A DNA stretch of 55,743 nt from Candidatus Hermodarchaeota archaeon (lineage in GTDB: Archaea > Asgardarchaeota > Hermodarchaeia > Hermodarchaeales > Hermodarchaeaceae), in the NCBI GenBank assembly GCA_016840065.1, contig JAEOTB010000095.1, positions 1 through 55,743 of the forward strand, in the 5' to 3' direction. The notes beneath the pieces were generated by a model that was not told where the DNA came from, did not search any database, and saw only the letters and a program-made list of their open reading frames with translations. A program made the position numbers and the translations under genes. This document shows positions 5,927-39,980 of this stretch, in pieces. Numbering within the stretch: the stretch's first letter is position 1; each line of letters starts with the position of its first letter.

Positions 5927-7259
5927 CTATTCTTCTGTCGTCTTCTTTTTCCGCCTTCTTCTTTTCGGTTTTGGCTTCTCTTCAGCTTCTTCAGTTTTCG
6001 TCTCCTCAACAGGCTCAGCAGGAGGGGCTTCGCTAGGCTCAGCAGATGGTGCTTCACCAGGCGCTAGTCGGGGCTCAGGCTCATCCTTAGGCCTCTTCCG
6101 CTTCTCTTTTATTTTTTCTCGCATACGCATATAGTGCTCAGCGAGGAGCTCAAGATGGCGCTTAGCAATATCTGGGTGAATATCCTTCTGGGCGAGTCTT
6201 TCTTCAAGACGAAGAACCAAGAACTCGGGGAAGAATGATTCGAAGTGGATATCTGAAAGAAGCATGACAAAGGGATCGTCTCCTCTCTTCACCTTTAGAG
6301 TGGTTGATCCCATCGTTGTGATAATCTTGGAGGATTCTAGTCGACGAATGACTGTATCAAGTGCTGCTTTCTTCTCTACTATCCCAGCTAGCTCGGATTT
6401 ATGAACTATACGTCGCCTTAGCACCTTTGCGACATCATAGATATCTGGATCAAGGAGGAGTTGACCCAGTTGAAGAGTATCATTCTCTGTCCAAGCATAG
6501 CTACTGAAAAACTCTGTGACTCGCTTCTCATACTCAGCAGCCTGTTCAGCAGTTAAACCTCCGGACTTTGCTAATTTGAGTGCTTGCTCTGGTGGATAAC
6601 GGGCACCAAACAAGTCATTTACCATAAACACACAGTTATCTGAGACCGCGTTAACCCAGTCCTCATCTACTATTCCGCTGCGTAGTAAAGGCAATGTCAA
6701 AAGACCAAGGTCAGGATAGTGCTTCCCAGTTTGTAGCTCTAACCATTCACGCAGCTCCTCACCAGGAATCCCTCCACGCGATAACTTATGCATAAGAAGA
6801 CGCGTCTCCTGATCTACAAACACTTTCGCCAAGCGCTGCTCGATGCTCAGCTCAACCATCCTTTTCAGCTTGTCAAACATCTCACCGAGATACTCAGTGA
6901 ACTCTGGTTCACCAATATTCTCAACAATCTCATTTGAAGCAAGCGTCAAACCTTCCTCATAAGCGCGGGCCTCCTCATCCAACTCCAAGAAGAGCATCAC
7001 GCAAAATTGATCCTTACCTCGGCGAATACCTGAATACCAGCTTGAAACAGCAAGCTGTGTACCTTCAAGAGTCATCGTCAAGAATCCAGCCTCAGGTTTA
7101 CCCATGGCATGAGCCGTAAACACCCGAAGCATGTTCTCCTCAGACACATCAAGATCAGAAGGAAACACACCAACAACGCGTAAACCGCTTTTGTCATTGG
7201 GGGACGAGGTGAGTGACACCTGTCCAATCCCAGCGGGTGACTCCTAATCCTAGTGGCAT
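5927..7259 (-). CDS. uDENN/longin-like domain protein, two exons (7259-7227 and 7195-5927), 433 aa after splicing
   Basis: GGTGA SD 7 nt before ATG 7259. Exon 1 MPLGLGVTRWD joins DKSGLRVVGVFP after removing 31 nt; 1302 nt remain, in frame. Collinear with the N-terminus of the 8256-9233 product. Confidence 0.85.
7196..7226 (-). other. Candidate BHB/BHL-type pre-mRNA intron (31 nt)
   Basis: 4-bp central helix UGGG/CCCA, 3-nt bulge AU^U, 9-bp intron stem (GGAC-AGGUG/CACCU-c-GUCC), 3' site AU^G; excision restores the frame. Confidence 0.8.
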
Positions 7260-7395
7260 TTTTTTCTCACCATTATCAAGTTTGTTTGGTTTCTCTTGGT
7301 TTATCTTGTATTAAATTGTTTCTATATTCCTTTATTTGGTCAACCTGTTTTCGGCGATTGTTTAGGCGTGCCTAATTTCGCCTAGTTTCGGACCC

Positions 7396-8259
7396 CTAAT
7401 CACCTGTTGCTTCGGCAACAGCACCCACAAGGACTTTGAAGAGAACCTCTCTATATCTGGGGTCGATTGCAACCAAGCCATAGGTCTGGACTCCGAGAAT
7501 CCGTTGGACAAGCTTGGCAGACAAGGCACCAGGAAGGTCCTGTTTATTCGCTATTGCCCAAACTATGGCAGAGGAGGCGTTCTTCCTTACCATCTCAAGT
7601 ATGTCCCTTGTCGCCAATACATTTCTCAAAGTGGAATCAGTTACCAATAACACAGCGTCCGCGTTGCGGAGATAATAACCCCAAAGGGACCGAAACCTCT
7701 CCTGTCCAGCGAAATCCCAGACGACTAATTCATATGGTCCGAAGCGTACACCCTGCAGCTTCTCTACGTCAACAGCGACCGTTGGGACATAGATTCCATC
7801 GATTACTGCGCCAGTGAGGAGTTTTAACATTGTGGATTTTCCTACTCCTCCTTGTCCGAGTAGACAGATTTTCAGCATCGTAACTATGACATCGTCGAGT
7901 TCGCTGGCGAAGCCTTGGAAGGCGTTCTGATGGGGGCTTGAGAGGTAGGATTCCACCTCGTGTTGATACTTTCCTAGGAGGAGCTGTTGAGTTCTGTTGA
8001 TTAACTCTCTTATGCTAGCTTCATCATCACTCGAGTCAACGGCAAAGACGAGGATGAGTTTTTCACCAATTGCGGAATAGAGGAATTTTACTTGGCTGAC
8101 ATGAATAGGGAGGTCTACGCTTGGACCGATTTCTGTTTGTAGTGCAGTCAGGGTAATTAGGAACTCTTGGATAATCTCATTGGTGATGTCTATTGACCAG
8201 TATTGTCTATGGAAGACGCGCCGACCTGTTTTGGTGAGAATGAAGACATTGTGGATCAT
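7396..8259 (-). CDS. Longin-like domain fused to Arf/Rab-like small GTPase
   Basis: G1 GQGGVGKS, G2 YVPT, G3 WDFAGQE, G4 NKQD; N-terminal MIHNVFILTKTG..VFHRQY resembles adaptin sigma/mu longin domains. Confidence 0.9.
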   Translation of the reverse strand: MIHNVFILTKTGRRVFHRQYWSIDITNEIIQEFLITLTALQTEIGPSVDLPIHVSQVKFLYSAIGEKLILVFAVDSSDDEASIRELINRTQQLLLGKYQHEVESYLSSPHQNAFQGFASELDDVIVTMLKICLLGQGGVGKSTMLKLLTGAVIDGIYVPTVAVDVEKLQGVRFGPYELVVWDFAGQERFRSLWGYYLRNADAVLLVTDSTLRNVLATRDILEMVRKNASSAIVWAIANKQDLPGALSAKLVQRILGVQTYGLVAIDPRYREVLFKVLVGAVAEATGD

Positions 8260-9233
8260 GTGGTCATGTCACCCTCTATCGTATGGGTTTGTGTAACATC
8301 AGTTAGGAGAGGGGAGAGCTCTCTGCAGTTTCGGCGGAGAGCTGTCAAAGAACATCCAACAAGTTCGATTAAATCATTTTCGGACAACCTGTCCCCTGTA
8401 TGTTTCGCGCTGATGAAGGCAATGGATGCAGCGATAATTGGTCGTGGTACACCCTGAAAGCTACCTTTCTCACTGATTAATTCGGTGATATTAGATGATA
8501 AGTCTTTAGTGGTTCGTGAGACTGGTAGAAATGTGAAGAGGTGGTCTAGTATAGCATGAATTGGTTCACTCCAACTCTTCTGCTCTGACACCTTTTGACT
8601 GCGATGTTCATCTGCTTTGGAAAGAATCCGTTGTATGCCAGCTCGTACAATCCTCCGTGCGTTTGCCAATTGTTTTCGTCTTTGTCGACGGACATACCTA
8701 GGACACTGAGGGAAACCAGGCATCTGGTATTTTGTCAAGTAACATGGCTTCTTAACTACCCTGCAGAACGATGCCATTTCACCTTGATCGGAGGAACGCT
8801 CATAAAGAAAGGGACAAATTGATTTATCCCTTGAGCCGCCACGCCGTTTGATTTCCCTCGACATCTCAATGAGGATTCGGCGATATTTCCGTATACGTTC
8901 CTTTTTATCCCCCTCAATGGCGATTATTTTTTGGATTGTAGAAAGAAGTACTGTTTGGTAAGCTGTGGGCTCCTCCTCTGAACGAAGAAGCACAATTAGG
9001 CAGTAATAGTTTTCTGCACCAAATTTTTTTATTCGCCTAAAAGCAGCGGCCGCACGCAGGGAAACATCTGTGGAAGGAAACACTCGGAAAACAGTGTCAC
9101 GGTTAACCACAGCGCAACCATAGAAAATCTGGGCTAGCTCTTGTCGATCCACATCTAATGAGTTTGGGTGTTTCGCAAGCAGGACTAGACCAGTCTTTAC
9201 ATCCCAAGTGCTAGAGACTAACCCTCGAGGGAT
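8256..9233 (-). CDS. uDENN/longin-like domain + Cys-rich segment + TFB/TFIIB C-terminal cyclin-HTH-like domain; probable ATC start
   Basis: In-frame extension IPRGLVSSTWDVKTGLVLLAKHP upstream of GTG 9152, with GGTGA 6 nt before ATC 9233. C-terminus GVPRPIIAASIAF...LSENDLIELVGCSLTALRRNCREL resembles TFB repeat 2. Confidence 0.7.
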   Translation of the reverse strand: MPRGLVSSTWDVKTGLVLLAKHPNSLDVDRQELAQIFYGCAVVNRDTVFRVFPSTDVSLRAAAAFRRIKKFGAENYYCLIVLLRSEEEPTAYQTVLLSTIQKIIAIEGDKKERIRKYRRILIEMSREIKRRGGSRDKSICPFLYERSSDQGEMASFCRVVKKPCYLTKYQMPGFPQCPRYVRRQRRKQLANARRIVRAGIQRILSKADEHRSQKVSEQKSWSEPIHAILDHLFTFLPVSRTTKDLSSNITELISEKGSFQGVPRPIIAASIAFISAKHTGDRLSENDLIELVGCSLTALRRNCRELSPLLTDVTQTHTIEGDMTT

Positions 9234-9306
9234 TACAGTTCACCTTTACGCTCTTTTCCATCTACCAATTAATCTAAGTTTAAATGAATTTTATGCTGTT
9301 CCAACA

Positions 9307-10206
9307 CTACGCAGTCCCGACATACTTCTCAACTGCGTCTAGGAGGATTCGCATCATCTCAGCTCTTTTTTCAGGGTTCACCGCCACCATCCCAAAGGTT
9401 GGTACTCCCAATAATCGTTCAACTAAAGAGGGGCTCAAGGCACCTTCCAAATCCTGTTTGTTGGCAATGGCCCAAACTGGTACTCCAGGCGCATCCTTTC
9501 GTATGATATCTAGTATCGCCTTGGTGGCAAGGACATTGTTTAATGTCGAGTCGGTGATGAGGAAAACTATGTCACTACCTCTGAAGTAAATTGCCCAAAG
9601 CCTACGGAATCGCTCCTGGCCCGCAAAGTCCCAGAGGATAATCTTATAGGTCCCGTATCTTGTCGCCTCAATTTGTTCTATGCTAAGTGCAATCGTGGGA
9701 ACATACTCGGTTGGTGGATCACCCTCTTTGAGAAGCTTTAGGAGAGTAGTTTTTCCAACGCCGCCTTCACCCACTAAACTGACTTTGAGCTTACTCATTA
9801 TGAATTCGTCGATGAGTGATTCGATTTGTACCACATCTTCATCTCCAACGGGTTTACTGAACATATCAGCACCAAATTGTTCAATGAGCGAGCTAAGACA
9901 TGATTTCACTTTTTCAACAACCCTCTCGTCCTCATCTTGCATATGGGATACGAAGCCTAAGAGAAGCCCTTCACGAGTTGAGAAAATGAACTTATTTCCT
10001 TGGATATGGATCGGTAAAGAGGGAAGAATGGGAGATTGAACATGTGCCATAAATTCATGATATGCTTTTAGAAACTCGTTAATCATCTCGTCTGTGAGTT
10101 CAACTCGCCAGTATTGTTTACTGAATACGAGTTCCGCTTGTAATTTTGCTTCATCAGTGCTAGAGGATATTGATAGAAGGAAGGCATTATGAATCGTTCT
10201 GTCCAC
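9307..10206 (-). CDS. Longin-like domain fused to Arf/Rab-like small GTPase (paralog of 7396-8259)
   Basis: GEGGVGKT, YVPT, WDFAGQERFR, NKQDL; start trimmed to GTG 10206 by paralog alignment. Confidence 0.9.
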   Translation of the reverse strand: MDRTIHNAFLLSISSSTDEAKLQAELVFSKQYWRVELTDEMINEFLKAYHEFMAHVQSPILPSLPIHIQGNKFIFSTREGLLLGFVSHMQDEDERVVEKVKSCLSSLIEQFGADMFSKPVGDEDVVQIESLIDEFIMSKLKVSLVGEGGVGKTTLLKLLKEGDPPTEYVPTIALSIEQIEATRYGTYKIILWDFAGQERFRRLWAIYFRGSDIVFLITDSTLNNVLATKAILDIIRKDAPGVPVWAIANKQDLEGALSPSLVERLLGVPTFGMVAVNPEKRAEMMRILLDAVEKYVGTA

Positions 10207-10355
10207 CACCAAGCATATACTTGTGATAACTTCCTGCTCTTCTTTCCAAGAGTATGCAAAAATCTTTGGGTGAAGCGTTTTTGAAAGCCACCAAGCTATG
10301 TTTTCTTTAACTAAACCTTTTTTAGTACTTGTTCCTGAAGGGAGATGCACCAGAA

Positions 10356-11591
10356 ATGAAATCAATTGAATGTACTGAATTAGGAACATGGATAGCTGAG
10401 AGAACTGATGAGCTATTGGCAGATTATCGGTCCGACATCCTGCGCCCAATTGAGAAAATCCAACAGGCTTTATTAAAGATTGAAGAAAGTGCAGAGCTCC
10501 TTTTAGAAGAAGTTGTTATCGACGGAGAATTAACCGTTCCAGGAGCTGCAAGTAAACTATCAGAAGCGCTGAAAAGCAGGGGAGGCGACATCGAATTTCC
10601 AAAAAAGCCAACGTTTGCCTCTACACAAGAGCTGTTGGAAAAGCTTGAGTATTACCTACGAGGAAGCACCGAAGCGGGGCGGCGCTATGTTCCGAGACTT
10701 CCAAAAGCTCACAAGAGAGCGATTAAAGAGTTGGACTATCAGATTCGTGTAATCAGTAATGCTTATCAAAAAATCAAGAAGGTTTCAGAGAAGAACAAGT
10801 TACCGAAAGAGTTAGAGCTTCTTGCCCAAGAAGTAGAGGAGCTAGAACAGAAAGCACAACAACTCGTAAAACTTACAGCCGAGCTAGAAGAATTGAGGGA
10901 AAGACAAATCGAAATGGCAGGTAAGCTGAAAACTCATCAACAAGCCGTGGAACGCTTTCATTCTGATTCCGGATTAAGTGAGATTGAGAATATTCGTCGA
11001 GAGATAGATGCGATTCGGATGCTTGTCACAAATCAATTGAACTTTCTAAAAAAACCCCTCAAAAAACTGAGTCAAGCAGCGGGTGGTTCCATAATGCTCA
11101 CATCAATGGCAGTAGAGGGAGCTGAAGCGTATTCATCAAATCCATGGCAAGCTTTTACCCAAGATAGTGAAAAACTCTCAAAATTAAAGGCCTGTCTGAT
11201 CGCTCTAGGTGACGCAGTACAAGCAGGCAAGCTCAGGTTCAAACAGAGTATAGATCGAAGAATAGTTGAAAGGAGAACCGAAATCTGTGATAAAGCTGCC
11301 CTTGATGAATTACTAGAACGCTATTCAAGATTGGTTGAGAGACAACGGGAATTAGAGTCTAGCGTCTCAGCTGAAGAACAACGTGGTCTCCAAAAGGCAT
11401 TAGATCGAGCAAAATGGGAGCACCGAGATGTCGATGCTGAAATTGCTCAAGGAGAGGGGCAGAAATCAAGGCTAGTGAAGGTCCTTGAATCACTTAAACA
11501 AAAAATAGAGAAGATGATAGCACGAATTATAAGAGAGGACATCAGCATCACTTTTCCTGATCAAATTCAATCCCTCCTAGAAGAGAGCTAG
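10356..11591 (+). CDS. Coiled-coil protein of unknown function
   Basis: E/K/L-rich helical ORF; GGAGA-like SD before ATG 10356. Confidence 0.75.
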   Translation: MKSIECTELGTWIAERTDELLADYRSDILRPIEKIQQALLKIEESAELLLEEVVIDGELTVPGAASKLSEALKSRGGDIEFPKKPTFASTQELLEKLEYYLRGSTEAGRRYVPRLPKAHKRAIKELDYQIRVISNAYQKIKKVSEKNKLPKELELLAQEVEELEQKAQQLVKLTAELEELRERQIEMAGKLKTHQQAVERFHSDSGLSEIENIRREIDAIRMLVTNQLNFLKKPLKKLSQAAGGSIMLTSMAVEGAEAYSSNPWQAFTQDSEKLSKLKACLIALGDAVQAGKLRFKQSIDRRIVERRTEICDKAALDELLERYSRLVERQRELESSVSAEEQRGLQKALDRAKWEHRDVDAEIAQGEGQKSRLVKVLESLKQKIEKMIARIIREDISITFPDQIQSLLEES

Positions 11592-16766: not shown

Positions 16767-17324
16767 ATGACACCAACACAAAAGATTCCAGCCCAGATAA
16801 TTGAAAACAAAGTAGTGGTTTGGAAACCCGCGGATGGCTCGTCACTCTATGCTAAAGGCTTCTTCGGCAAACCCTTGGGTATCCGCAAACCCAAAACAGC
16901 AGAATTCGATCGCCCATCCCAATTATCGTTCTTTGAAGCACTCTATCTGCTCCGAAAAGGCTTTCTTGTTATCTATCAGGAGGAAATATCAAAGCCCCTA
17001 TCAGAGAAAGCGGTAGTGGAAATCGCCGAGTACCACCACGCCAGCTTTTCACAGAAATACCAAGTCTACGAAGATCTCAGGGCCCGCGGTTTTGTTGTAA
17101 GACCAGGCTTGAAATTCGGTGCAGATTTTGCAGTCTACAGGCAGGGCCCTGGCATCGACCACTCAGTGTTCATAATCCAAGTGGTTGCTAACTCTCAAGA
17201 AATTTCAGCTATAGAAGTTGTACGTGCCGGTCGTCTCGCTACATCAGTTAGAAAGAGGTTCGTACTCGCAACACCAAGAAAAGGGAAAACCCAATACTTC
17301 GTATTTTCTTGGATGAAGCCCTAA
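16767..17324 (+). CDS. endA: tRNA-splicing endonuclease, catalytic subunit
   Basis: VYEDLRARG, GLKFGADFAVY, GPGIDHS, RLATSVRK (Tyr/His/Lys triad). Confidence 0.96.
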   Translation: MTPTQKIPAQIIENKVVVWKPADGSSLYAKGFFGKPLGIRKPKTAEFDRPSQLSFFEALYLLRKGFLVIYQEEISKPLSEKAVVEIAEYHHASFSQKYQVYEDLRARGFVVRPGLKFGADFAVYRQGPGIDHSVFIIQVVANSQEISAIEVVRAGRLATSVRKRFVLATPRKGKTQYFVFSWMKP

Positions 17325-39857: not shown

Positions 39858-39980
39858 TGGTAGCCCGGCGCGGATTCGAACCGCGGTCCCAAGGTAACTC
39901 CACAGTACCAATGATACTGTTCCAGAGCCTCGGATGATTGACCAATTTGCCCTCTAACGAGAGGCCTACACTACCGGGCT
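39858..39980 (-). tRNA. tRNA-Gln(CUG) with encoded CCA and two introns (39945-39965 at 15/16; 39896-39921 at 37/38)
   Basis: Acceptor AGCCCGG/CCGGGCU, T-arm CGCGG-UUCGAAU-CCGCG, anticodon stem CGAGG/CCUUG; 123-21-26 = 76 nt mature. Confidence 0.95.

What the first reader, a model, noticed from the sequence alone, without database searches (positions are those of the whole stretch)
7196..7226. Candidate BHB-type intron in an mRNA encoding a eukaryotic-signature protein
Seen: GGTGA SD plus ATG 7259 gives MPLGLGVTRWD-WTGVTHLVPQ*, out of frame with the 430-codon ORF. The RNA folds into a 4-bp helix UGGG(7232-7229)/CCCA(7201-7198), a 3-nt bulge AUU, and a 9-bp intron stem closed by a 5-nt loop. 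On the 3' side AUG opens a larger loop before an outer CCGC/GCGG helix (relaxed BHL form). Established: archaeal EndA cuts after the second nucleotide of each bulge. Applying that rule removes exactly 7226-7196 and gives MPLGLGVTRWDDKSGLRVVGVFPSDLDV. This aligns without gaps to the intronless paralog IPRGLVSSTWDVKTGLVLLAKHPNSLDV (9233). The well-established archaeal mRNA intron case is crenarchaeal cbf5. Inference: this probable Asgard archaeon splices an mRNA for a GTPase-regulator-like protein, which bears on intron origins and on IRE1/XBP1-like regulated splicing.
Basis: partly seen in the sequence, partly recalled or inferred. Interest (0 to 1): 0.95.

Follow-up and report, generated by a model that had tools for sequence, protein, structure and literature searches.

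The report
tRNA-type mini-intron in Asgard mRNA
A conserved longin-domain gene of an Asgard archaeon is split after codon 11 by a 31-base hairpin shaped like a tRNA intron; the same genome has such inserts in its only EF-1alpha gene, so its protein messages are very probably spliced by the tRNA-splicing enzymes.

Summary
On the minus strand, SD GGTGA and ATG 7259 open 11 codons (MPLGLGVTRWD). Then 31 nt (7226-7196) break the frame before the 422-codon remainder.

Sixteen full-length copies in family genomes, and further metagenomic homologues, are uninterrupted. The closest start exactly MPLGLGVTRWDDKSGL, which is the predicted spliced product. Independent contigs from two DNA runs carry the insert.

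The fold is a relaxed bulge-helix-bulge (BHB): a 4-bp central helix, a 3-nt 5' bulge and a 9-bp intron hairpin. Both cuts fall two bases 3' of the central-helix strands. The 3' cut lies in a 9-nt loop rather than a 3-nt bulge.

The same genome has inserts of identical layout (26-31 nt) in its only EF-1alpha gene (two), dnaG, two acs copies, moxR and tRNAs. The dnaG insert is conserved in all 12 family genomes examined.

No RNA data exist, so splicing is inferred (about 0.85). The regulated-splicing idea is untested.

This scan has reported similar introns in other Asgard genomes. In print, I found only crenarchaeal cbf5.

The parts
7267..7271 (-). Shine-Dalgarno GGTGA, 7 nt upstream of the start codon
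   Evidence: Read directly from the sequence. The same position is conserved as GGTGG in relatives (alignment A1).
7227..7259 (-). Exon 1: ATG plus 10 codons, MPLGLGVTRWD. It encodes strand beta-1 of the longin domain.
   Evidence: 11 of 11 residues are identical to relatives, and all three differences specific to this genome are synonymous. P2, G4, L5, W10 and D11 are invariant in alignment A2. The AF2 model places a strand at residues 4-11.
7196..7226 (-). 31-nt intron (phase 0, between codons 11 and 12). It contains the stem GGACAGGUG / CACCU(C)GUCC with loop UCACU, and the 3' strand of the central helix.
   Evidence: It is absent, exactly, from L002-L005 and from the full-length copies of this gene in 16 other family genomes. 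It is present in the Logan contigs of DNA runs X1 and X2. It is unique in the genome and the family.
7229..7232 (-). Central helix H, 5' strand UGGG (in exon 1). It pairs with CCCA 7198-7201.
   Evidence: formed in the local MFE fold.
7198..7201 (-). Central helix H, 3' strand CCCA (the last-but-two nucleotides of the intron).
7226..7228 (-). 5' bulge AU|U. The cut is after the second base, between 7227 and 7226.
   Evidence: Geometry read. The same rule gives seamless junctions in acs (profile positions 412|413) and in tuf.
7195..7197 (-). 3' cut site AU|G, two bases 3' of helix H. It is the start of a 9-nt loop (7190-7197 plus G7195 context) rather than a 3-nt bulge.
   Evidence: This is the relaxed (HBh'/BHL) form.
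7186..7189 (-). GCGG, the 3' strand of a displaced exon-exon helix. It pairs with CCGC 7233-7236.
   Evidence: present in the MFE fold. It is not in the canonical h register.
5927..7195 (-). Exon 2: 422 codons plus the stop. It encodes the rest of the longin domain, a helical/winged-helix part and a charged tail.
16767..17324 (+). EndA catalytic (alpha-type) subunit, the presumed cutting enzyme.
   Evidence: PF01974 at 102.9 bits. TIGR00324 and a match to the C-terminal half of alpha'2 models. The best PDB hit is the A. pernix alpha subunit 3P1Z_B, E 6e-45, gap-free over the CSL with the K44 equivalent conserved.
7396..8259 (-). Upstream neighbour: a longin-like N-terminus fused to an Arf/Ras-family GTPase, the probable partner of the interrupted gene.
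   Evidence: Pfam Arf 1.2e-20, Roc and Ras. The same gene order is found in relatives.

Best explanation
The 31 nt at 7226-7196 (minus strand) are an archaeal endonuclease-type (bulge-helix-bulge, relaxed HBh'/BHL form) intron inside an mRNA.

Proposed mechanism:
- The pre-mRNA folds so that exon bases UGGG pair with intron bases CCCA, forming the 4-bp central helix.
- AUU bulges out on the 5' side, and the intron body forms a 9-bp hairpin.
- The heterotetrameric (alpha-beta)2 EndA cuts two bases 3' of each central-helix strand, at 7227|7226 and 7196|7195.
- RtcB joins the exons.
- The result is an mRNA encoding MPLGLGVTRWD-DKSGL..., a longin-domain protein that sits beside a longin-Arf-type GTPase.

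Shown here: the insert, its exact absence in relatives, the fold geometry, the enzymes, and same-layout inserts in essential genes and tRNAs of this genome.

Inferred: that this particular insert is actually cut out of the RNA. The intron was gained on the branch leading to this species.
For: 1. Orthologs. P0001-P0004 (91-94% identical) start exactly with the predicted spliced sequence. DNA alignment A1 shows a clean 31-nt gap in four related loci. Sixteen other family genomes give full-length matches from residue 1 or 2; only this genome is interrupted.
2. DNA. Contigs assembled independently from two DNA runs carry the insert with no differences.
3. Geometry. The local MFE fold equals the BHB-constrained fold, at -22.1 kcal/mol. 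The chance rate of such a motif is about 1.4e-4 per position.
4. EF-1alpha in the same genome. The only EF-1alpha gene matches PF00009 in three pieces: profile positions 1-38, 41-86 and 85-187. The pieces are separated by 29- and 31-nt inserts of the same layout. The other strong GTP_EFTU hit of EF-1alpha-like size (420 aa) is aIF2-gamma.
5. Other genes in the same genome. The acs exons abut at profile positions 412|413 across a 31-nt insert. dnaG and moxR are split likewise. tRNA introns of 26-33 nt have the same layout.
6. Conservation. The dnaG insert is conserved at one site in all 12 family genomes examined. Of the pair cells, 96.8% are paired, against 41-54% when the partners are slid, and two pairs show compensatory changes.
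7. Enzymes. There are two EndA paralogs, one alpha-like and one beta-like. The CSL lysine is conserved; its role in broad specificity is shown in PMC3241643. RtcB is present.
8. Literature. Asgard EndA is (alpha-beta)2 with the L1 loop (PMC5829648). The crenarchaeal heterotetramer cleaves relaxed motifs outside a tRNA context, as in cbf5 (PMC2738675).
9. Exon 1 encodes invariant residues and strand beta-1 of the longin domain.
Against: - There are no RNA data for this organism, so excision is not observed.
- The 3' cut lies in a 9-nt loop, not a 3-nt bulge, and the canonical exon-exon helix h is missing. However, tuf intron 1 and the acs intron also lack h.
- The insert is unique to this genome. 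Its own structure therefore cannot be tested by covariation, and a very recent unspliced insertion cannot be excluded.
- The motif alone is not enriched genome-wide over a reversed-sequence null. Only homology-anchored cases count.
- The genome is a MAG, 83.9% complete with 5% contamination.
Confidence: 0.85

Rival explanations
1. The insert is an unspliced insertion mutation. The gene is either dead or makes an N-terminally truncated protein from GTG 7219 (MSLTSSPNDKSGL...). The upstream ATG then yields only a 21-residue peptide.
For: The insert occurs in this genome only. No RNA evidence is available. An in-frame GTG exists at 7219. A paralogous module nearby (8256-9233) might compensate.
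Against: - A random 31-nt insert would fit the H/bulge/hairpin layout at the frame-restoring cuts with probability of about 1e-4 to 1e-3.
- The length and layout equal those of inserts in the single EF-1alpha gene and in tRNAs of the same genome, which must be removed.
- The SD, the ATG and all 11 exon-1 codons are intact, and changes specific to this genome are synonymous only.
- A product starting at GTG 7219 would lack the invariant residues P2, G4, L5, W10 and D11 and strand beta-1.
- There is no clear SD before GTG 7219.
Confidence: 0.09
2. The insert stays in the mRNA and the ribosome deals with it by translational recoding. One route is a bypass from GAU 7229-7227 to GAC 7195-7193 (both Asp), as in T4 gene 60 or the Magnusiomyces 'byps'. 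The other is a +1 frameshift in the overlap of the two frames.
For: The take-off and landing codons are both Asp, and a hairpin lies between them. Short hairpin inserts bypassed by ribosomes are known in yeast mitochondria (my own knowledge, not checked here).
Against: - A bypass would give WDKSG, one residue shorter than every ortholog (WDDKSG).
- The codon after the take-off site is UGG, not a stop.
- A +1 shift would add about 10 residues that no ortholog has.
- In tuf and dnaG the inserts split codons (AA|C and C|TC), which a codon-matched bypass would not join as the orthologous sequence requires.
- Inserts of the same layout sit in untranslated tRNAs.
Confidence: 0.03
3. The 31 nt are an assembly artefact, or a minority allele that is not representative of the population.
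For: The genome is a metagenome bin with 5% contamination. The two runs that hold the insert come from one study and may be the source of the assembly.
Against: Two separately assembled Logan contigs (depth 8.6 and 14.3) carry it with no differences, and no alternative joint is reported. An artefact would not pair with the flanking exon in BHB geometry.
Confidence: 0.03

Closest known systems
BHB intron in the cbf5 pre-mRNA of Crenarchaeota (Watanabe 2002; Yokobori 2009, PMC2738675)
   Same: It is a short intron inside a protein-coding sequence. The exon-intron borders often carry a relaxed cleavage motif. A heterotetrameric EndA cleaves it outside a tRNA context. Exon ligation by the tRNA ligase is presumed.
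   Different: The phylum (Asgard) and the gene differ. Here the intron is one of at least seven inserts in six protein-coding genes of one genome, including EF-1alpha. This one is a species-specific recent gain, 33 nt after the start codon. Splicing of cbf5 was shown by RT-PCR; here it is inferred.
Non-canonical tRNA introns with relaxed BHB (HBh', hBH, BHL) cut by CSL/L1-bearing (alpha-beta)2 EndA (PMC3241643, PMC5829648; Asgard tRNA census, bioRxiv 10.64898/2026.10.13.758758)
   Same: The layout is identical: a 4-nt helix strand, a 3-nt bulge cut after base 2, a hairpin, the complementary 4 nt, and a second cut after base 2. The size range is the same as the tRNA introns of this very genome (26-33 nt). 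The enzyme type is the same.
   Different: The host RNA is an mRNA, so there is no tRNA body to help recognition. The product must keep a reading frame.
IRE1/RtcB splicing of XBP1 / HAC1 mRNA in eukaryotes
   Same: It works in a similar way: a short intron in an mRNA is removed by a protein endonuclease cutting at stem-loops, and the exons are joined by an RtcB-type ligase, which changes the reading frame.
   Different: The nuclease is unrelated (the IRE1 kinase-RNase domain, not EndA), and it recognises loop sequences rather than a BHB. Nothing here points to stress regulation. This is not a member of that system.
Programmed translational bypassing (T4 gene 60; mitochondrial 'byps' of Magnusiomyces)
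   Same: Short hairpin-forming inserts interrupt reading frames without killing the gene.
   Different: Those inserts stay in the mRNA and need matched take-off and landing codons. Here the ortholog spacing, the split codons in sister introns and the presence in tRNAs argue for removal at the RNA level.

Membership tests
Archaeal EndA-type (BHB) intron | A 4-bp central helix H formed between the exon and the intron end | tested here: met
   UGGG 7232-7229 pairs with CCCA 7201-7198, with 4 Watson-Crick pairs. It is formed in the local MFE fold.
Archaeal EndA-type (BHB) intron | Two 3-nt bulges on opposite strands flanking H (strict hBHBh') | tested here: not met
   The 5' bulge AUU is 3 nt. The 3' site sits in a 9-nt loop, and helix h is displaced by 6 nt. 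The strict form fails, so this is the relaxed HBh'/BHL form.
Archaeal EndA-type (BHB) intron, relaxed HBh'/BHL form | H plus one proper bulge plus intron helix h', with the second cut at the symmetric distance (2 nt 3' of H) in a loop | tested here: met
   h' has 9 bp with one bulged C. Both cuts lie 2 nt 3' of the H strands. tuf intron 1 and the acs intron of the same genome have the same h-less form.
Archaeal EndA-type (BHB) intron | Excision at the rule-given bonds restores the sequence found in intron-less homologues | tested here: met
   The predicted product MPLGLGVTRWDDKSGL equals P0001-P0004 and the G002/G003 loci. There are no extra residues in the 16 full-length family copies.
Archaeal EndA-type (BHB) intron | The host encodes a splicing endonuclease able to cut relaxed motifs, and an RNA ligase | tested here: met
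   There are alpha-like and beta-like EndA paralogs. The nearest solved structure is the A. pernix alpha subunit, and the CSL Lys is conserved. RtcB scores 566 bits.
Archaeal EndA-type (BHB) intron | The intron is absent from mature RNA (spliced junction, circular or linear intron) | not testable with these tools
   No RNA run holds the locus. Neither the spliced nor the unspliced junction was found in JGI metagenome contigs.
Archaeal EndA-type (BHB) intron | The structure is maintained by selection (covariation across homologous introns) | tested here: inconclusive
   This intron has no homologue. The sister dnaG intron shows 96.8% paired cells and 2 compensatory pairs in 12 genomes. The two acs copies differ by an A-U to U-A swap in h'.
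Programmed translational bypass element | Matched take-off and landing codons that give the orthologous protein length, and a stop right after take-off | tested here: not met
   GAU and GAC match as Asp, but the product would be one residue short of all orthologs. The next codon is UGG, not a stop.
Longin-domain GTPase regulators (FLCN/FNIP, NPRL2/3, Lst4 type), for the host protein | An N-terminal longin fold (beta-beta-alpha-beta-beta-beta-alpha-alpha) | tested here: met
   In the AF2 model, residues 1-126 have pLDDT of about 89 and exactly this order of elements. Foldseek hits include a Lokiarchaeal longin domain (8YQG), Lst4, Sec22b and NPRL2/3.
Longin-domain GTPase regulators (FLCN/FNIP, NPRL2/3, Lst4 type), for the host protein | Full-length similarity or GAP/GEF activity towards the neighbouring GTPase | tested here: inconclusive
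   The best hit is FLCN 6ULG_N, with E 9.5e-4, TM 0.25 and rmsd 25 A. The middle of the model has pLDDT below 50. No Pfam family matches. Activity cannot be tested here.

The most novel reading that the evidence does not exclude
This Asgard species is in an ongoing burst of EndA-type intron gain into protein-coding genes.

- The intron studied here and both EF-1alpha introns are absent from congeners, so they are terminal-branch gains.
- EF-1alpha intron 1 is a near copy of the family-wide dnaG intron. It is inserted after the same GCCUAC hexamer.
- This suggests that existing introns are copied into new mRNAs wherever the exon can supply the 5' half of the BHB.

If so, it would be a mobile-intron-like spread through mRNAs in close prokaryotic relatives of eukaryotes. 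An intron 33 nt after the AUG might also gate translation of this GTPase-partner gene.
Probability: 0.5. Interest if true: 0.85.

Novelty: new member of a known kind. Interest (0 to 1): 0.72.

Why it matters
In the papers I could search, splicing of an archaeal coding sequence by the tRNA endonuclease is documented for one gene, cbf5 of Crenarchaeota.

Here an Asgard archaeon carries such introns in at least six protein-coding genes, including its only EF-1alpha gene and dnaG. The intron studied here is a datable, species-specific gain in a gene of a eukaryote-like longin/small-GTPase module.

This gives three things:
- A concrete system for asking how protein-spliced introns arise and spread in mRNAs without a nucleus.
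- A practical warning that gene callers truncate or split such genes. This one is called from GTG 7219 and loses strand beta-1.
- Short, defined substrates for testing the specificity of Asgard EndA.

Tried and rejected
- **Motif-only genome scans.** A loose scan gave 70,885 hits against 71,223 in reversed sequence. A strict scan gave 7,044 against 7,041. ORF-joining filters gave 418 against 395-421, and 75 against 54-72, in shifted-cut controls. The motif alone has too little information, and only homology-anchored cases were kept. The first pure-Python scan timed out.
- **RNA evidence.** No RNA holder is listed for the locus. The spliced junction ACCCGCTGGGAT|GACAAAAGCGGTTTA and the unspliced junction were both absent from JGI metagenome contigs.
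- **Donor search for this intron.** There is no second copy in the genome and none within 3 mismatches in 18 family genomes.
- **P0029.** Its truncated N-terminus looked like a second interrupted ortholog. It turned out to be an ATT codon at the Met position.
- **P0001.** Its DNA could not be fetched because the file is too large.
- **Longer fold.** The 96-nt context fold was not unusual against shuffles (z = -1.4).
- **Pfam.** It gives no family for the host protein or its paralog.
- **Not attempted.** I did not make a whole-genome census of insertions specific to this genome relative to its congeners, because it would be too much sequence to fetch.

Full report
**What is in the sequence.** On the minus strand, GGTGA (7271-7267) is followed after 7 nt by ATG 7259. 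That frame reads MPLGLGVTRWD and then WTGVTHLVPQ-stop. The long ORF (5927..7219, 430 codons from a GTG) lies in another frame. Deleting 7226-7196 (31 nt) joins the two frames as MPLGLGVTRWD|DKSGLRVVGVFPSDLDV. Because AT precedes both junctions, three cut registers give the same product. Only one of them obeys the bulge rule.

**Comparison with relatives.**
- A protein search found 35 homologues, all from Asgard metagenome bins. Their sources name them Promethearchaeota, Thorarchaeota, Hermodarchaeota and Odinarchaeota.
- The four closest (91-94% identical) begin exactly MPLGLGVTRWDDKSGLRVVGVFP. More distant ones begin MPxGLxxxRWDDKxGL.
- At the DNA level, four related loci align with a clean 31-column gap at 7226-7196 and conserved flanks (A1).
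- In a search of 40 relatives, 16 other family genomes gave full-length matches starting at residue 1 or 2. Only this genome started at residue 10, in the other frame.
- The nearest relatives are 80-83% identical in DNA, so they are other species of the genus. The three differences in exon 1 that are specific to this genome are all synonymous.
- The insert is therefore real, precise and specific to this lineage.

**Is it in the DNA?** Two DNA runs from one marine-sediment study each yield an independently assembled 1,853-nt contig covering 6900-7500. Neither has any difference or alternative joint. They may be the source samples, so this excludes an assembler artefact but not a minority allele.

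**Fold.**
- In the local 55 nt, the minimum-free-energy structure (-22.1 kcal/mol) equals the BHB-constrained one.
- An outer helix forms between CCGC 7236-7233 and GCGG 7189-7186.
- The central helix pairs UGGG 7232-7229 with CCCA 7201-7198.
- The bulge is AUU 7228-7226.
- The intron hairpin pairs GGACAGGUG with CACCU(C)GUCC, closed by loop UCACU.
- This is the strand order of a canonical tRNA 37/38 intron: the 5' exon pairs with the intron's 3' end, and each cut falls after the second base 3' of a central-helix strand.
- The 3' site (AU|G) opens a 9-nt loop instead of a 3-nt bulge, and helix h is displaced. The motif is therefore the relaxed HBh'/BHL form, not strict hBHBh'.
- At a fixed length of 31, a motif of this strictness occurs about 1.4e-4 per position (742 in 5.2 M positions).

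**The decisive context: the same genome.** Earlier notes of this scan pointed to similar inserts elsewhere in the genome, and I tested them.
- **EF-1alpha.** The gene on contig C10 matches PF00009 in three pieces, covering profile positions 1-38, 41-86 and 85-187.
  - Its third exon matches EF-1alpha models from position 102 to the end. The other strong GTP_EFTU hit of EF-1alpha-like size (420 aa) is aIF2-gamma. This is therefore the only EF-1alpha gene in the assembly, which is 83.9% complete.
  - The breaks are a 29-nt insert (H GCCU/GGGU, bulge AC|A, 9-bp hairpin, AA|G) and a 31-nt insert (H CAAG/CUUG, AA|U, 10-bp hairpin with a UACG loop, CA|C, plus h UCAU/AUGA). Removing them restores SFKFAYVMDRL and DFIKNMITG.
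- **acs.** A 31-nt insert separates exons that abut at profile positions 412|413. A second acs copy has the homologous insert with an A-U to U-A swap in the stem.
- **dnaG and moxR.** Both are split in the same way.
- **tRNAs.** tRNA genes of this genome carry 26-33-nt introns of the same layout.
- An essential single-copy gene cannot tolerate unremoved inserts, and tRNAs are not translated. Removal at the RNA level is therefore the parsimonious common mechanism. The insert studied here has the same length and layout, and like tuf intron 1 and the acs intron it lacks h.

**Enzymes.**
- Window 16767-17324 is an EndA catalytic-type subunit. A second, beta-like paralog lies on C10.
- The closest solved structure is the alpha subunit of the Aeropyrum pernix heterotetramer (E 6e-45). 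The alignment is gap-free across the Crenarchaea-specific loop, and the equivalent of Lys44 is conserved.
- That lysine and loop confer broad substrate specificity (PMC3241643).
- Asgard EndAs were reported as (alpha-beta)2 with this L1 loop (PMC5829648).
- RtcB is present.

**Evolution of sister introns.**
- The dnaG insert sits at the same site in all 12 family genomes examined, at 28-31 nt. Of the pair cells, 96.8% are paired, against 41-54% when partners are slid, and two pairs change on both sides.
- Both tuf inserts are absent from all relatives: their matches are 60 nt shorter.
- tuf intron 1 is nearly identical to the dnaG intron of the sister genus, and it follows the same GCCTAC. This suggests the intron was copied from dnaG into tuf.
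- This species therefore seems to be gaining mRNA introns, and the one studied here is another terminal-branch gain. No donor was found for it.

**Host protein.**
- An AF2 model built with 22 homologues gives a confident N-terminal domain (residues 1-126, pLDDT about 89) with the longin order of elements. Exon 1 encodes strand beta-1.
- P2, G4, L5, W10 and D11 are invariant, even in the paralog.
- Foldseek matches are weak (E about 1e-3). They are FLCN, a Lokiarchaeal longin domain, NPRL2/3, Lst4 and Sec22b.
- The gene follows a longin-Arf-type GTPase gene, and the pair is duplicated upstream.
- 'GTPase-regulator-like' is a fair but unproven label.

**Rivals.**
- An unspliced, truncating insertion (0.09) is disfavoured by the geometry, the intact exon 1 and the analogues in the same genome.
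- Ribosomal bypass or frameshift (0.03) would give a product of the wrong length, and it cannot explain the split codons or the tRNA introns.
- An artefact or minority allele is given 0.03.
- My overall confidence that this is an EndA/RtcB-spliced intron is 0.85.

**Known or new.**
- The library searches returned only cbf5 as a spliced archaeal coding sequence. A 2026 preprint on Asgard tRNA introns does not treat mRNAs.
- This scan has already reported similar mini-introns in other Asgard genomes, some said to have RNA support. I did not check those reports.
- I file this as a new member of the BHB mRNA-intron kind, in a new phylum and a new gene, within a multi-gene set.
- The regulated-splicing idea has no support so far.

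Noticed in passing
window 9231-9233 (minus strand): The paralog 8256-9233 has no ATG, GTG or TTG before its conserved N-terminus IPRGL..WDVKTGL. An ATC sits 6 nt after a GGTGA SD, exactly where the orthologs' Met aligns (BLASTP from residue 1, E 7e-11). This is probably a non-canonical ATC start. Gene callers start it at GTG 9152.
   Followed up: partly
L046:1441-1443: A metagenomic ortholog (P0029) was called from an internal GTG. Upstream, ATT follows a GGAGGT SD at the Met position and the frame reads IPNGLSVCRWDDKVGL. This is a second case of an AUU/AUC-type start in this family.
   Followed up: partly
G000:C10:75524-75552 and 75365-75395 (minus strand): The only EF-1alpha gene of the assembly is split by 29-nt and 31-nt BHB inserts. 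The second is a textbook hBHBh' with a UACG loop. Both are absent from all relatives searched; their matches are 60 nt shorter.
   Followed up: yes
G000:C10:107682-107712; L073-L083: The dnaG primase gene carries a BHB insert at one site in all 12 family genomes examined (28-31 nt), with compensatory stem changes. EF-1alpha intron 1 of this genome is nearly identical to it and follows the same GCCTAC, which suggests the intron was copied from dnaG into tuf.
   Followed up: yes
G000:C113:13561-13591 and G000:C105:254-284 (minus strand): Two acetate-CoA ligase copies each carry a homologous 31-nt insert before the YWQTETGG motif. The exons abut at profile positions 412|413. The two stems differ by an A-U to U-A swap.
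   Followed up: yes
G000:C10:39546-39571 (plus strand): A MoxR-type ATPase gene is split before its Walker A motif (GHILLE / GVPGIAKT) by a 26-nt insert, with H UGCU/GGCA and the UAA stop in the hairpin loop.
   Followed up: partly
window 39858-39980 (minus strand): A tRNA-Pro(TGG) gene of 123 nt is found only when ARAGORN searches for introns; the default scan of the window found no tRNA. A 26-nt BHB (39896-39921, outer helix 7 bp) lies inside it. ARAGORN finds only 28 tRNAs in the whole genome, 16 of them with introns, so many are probably hidden by multiple introns.
   Followed up: partly
window 5927-10449 (minus strand): There is a tandem duplication of a two-gene module: a longin-like N-terminus fused to an Arf/Ras-family GTPase (9307-10449 and 7396-8259), each followed by a longin-domain partner (8256-9233 and 5927-7259). 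The stop and start of each GTPase and partner pair overlap by 4 nt at 8256-8259.
   Followed up: partly
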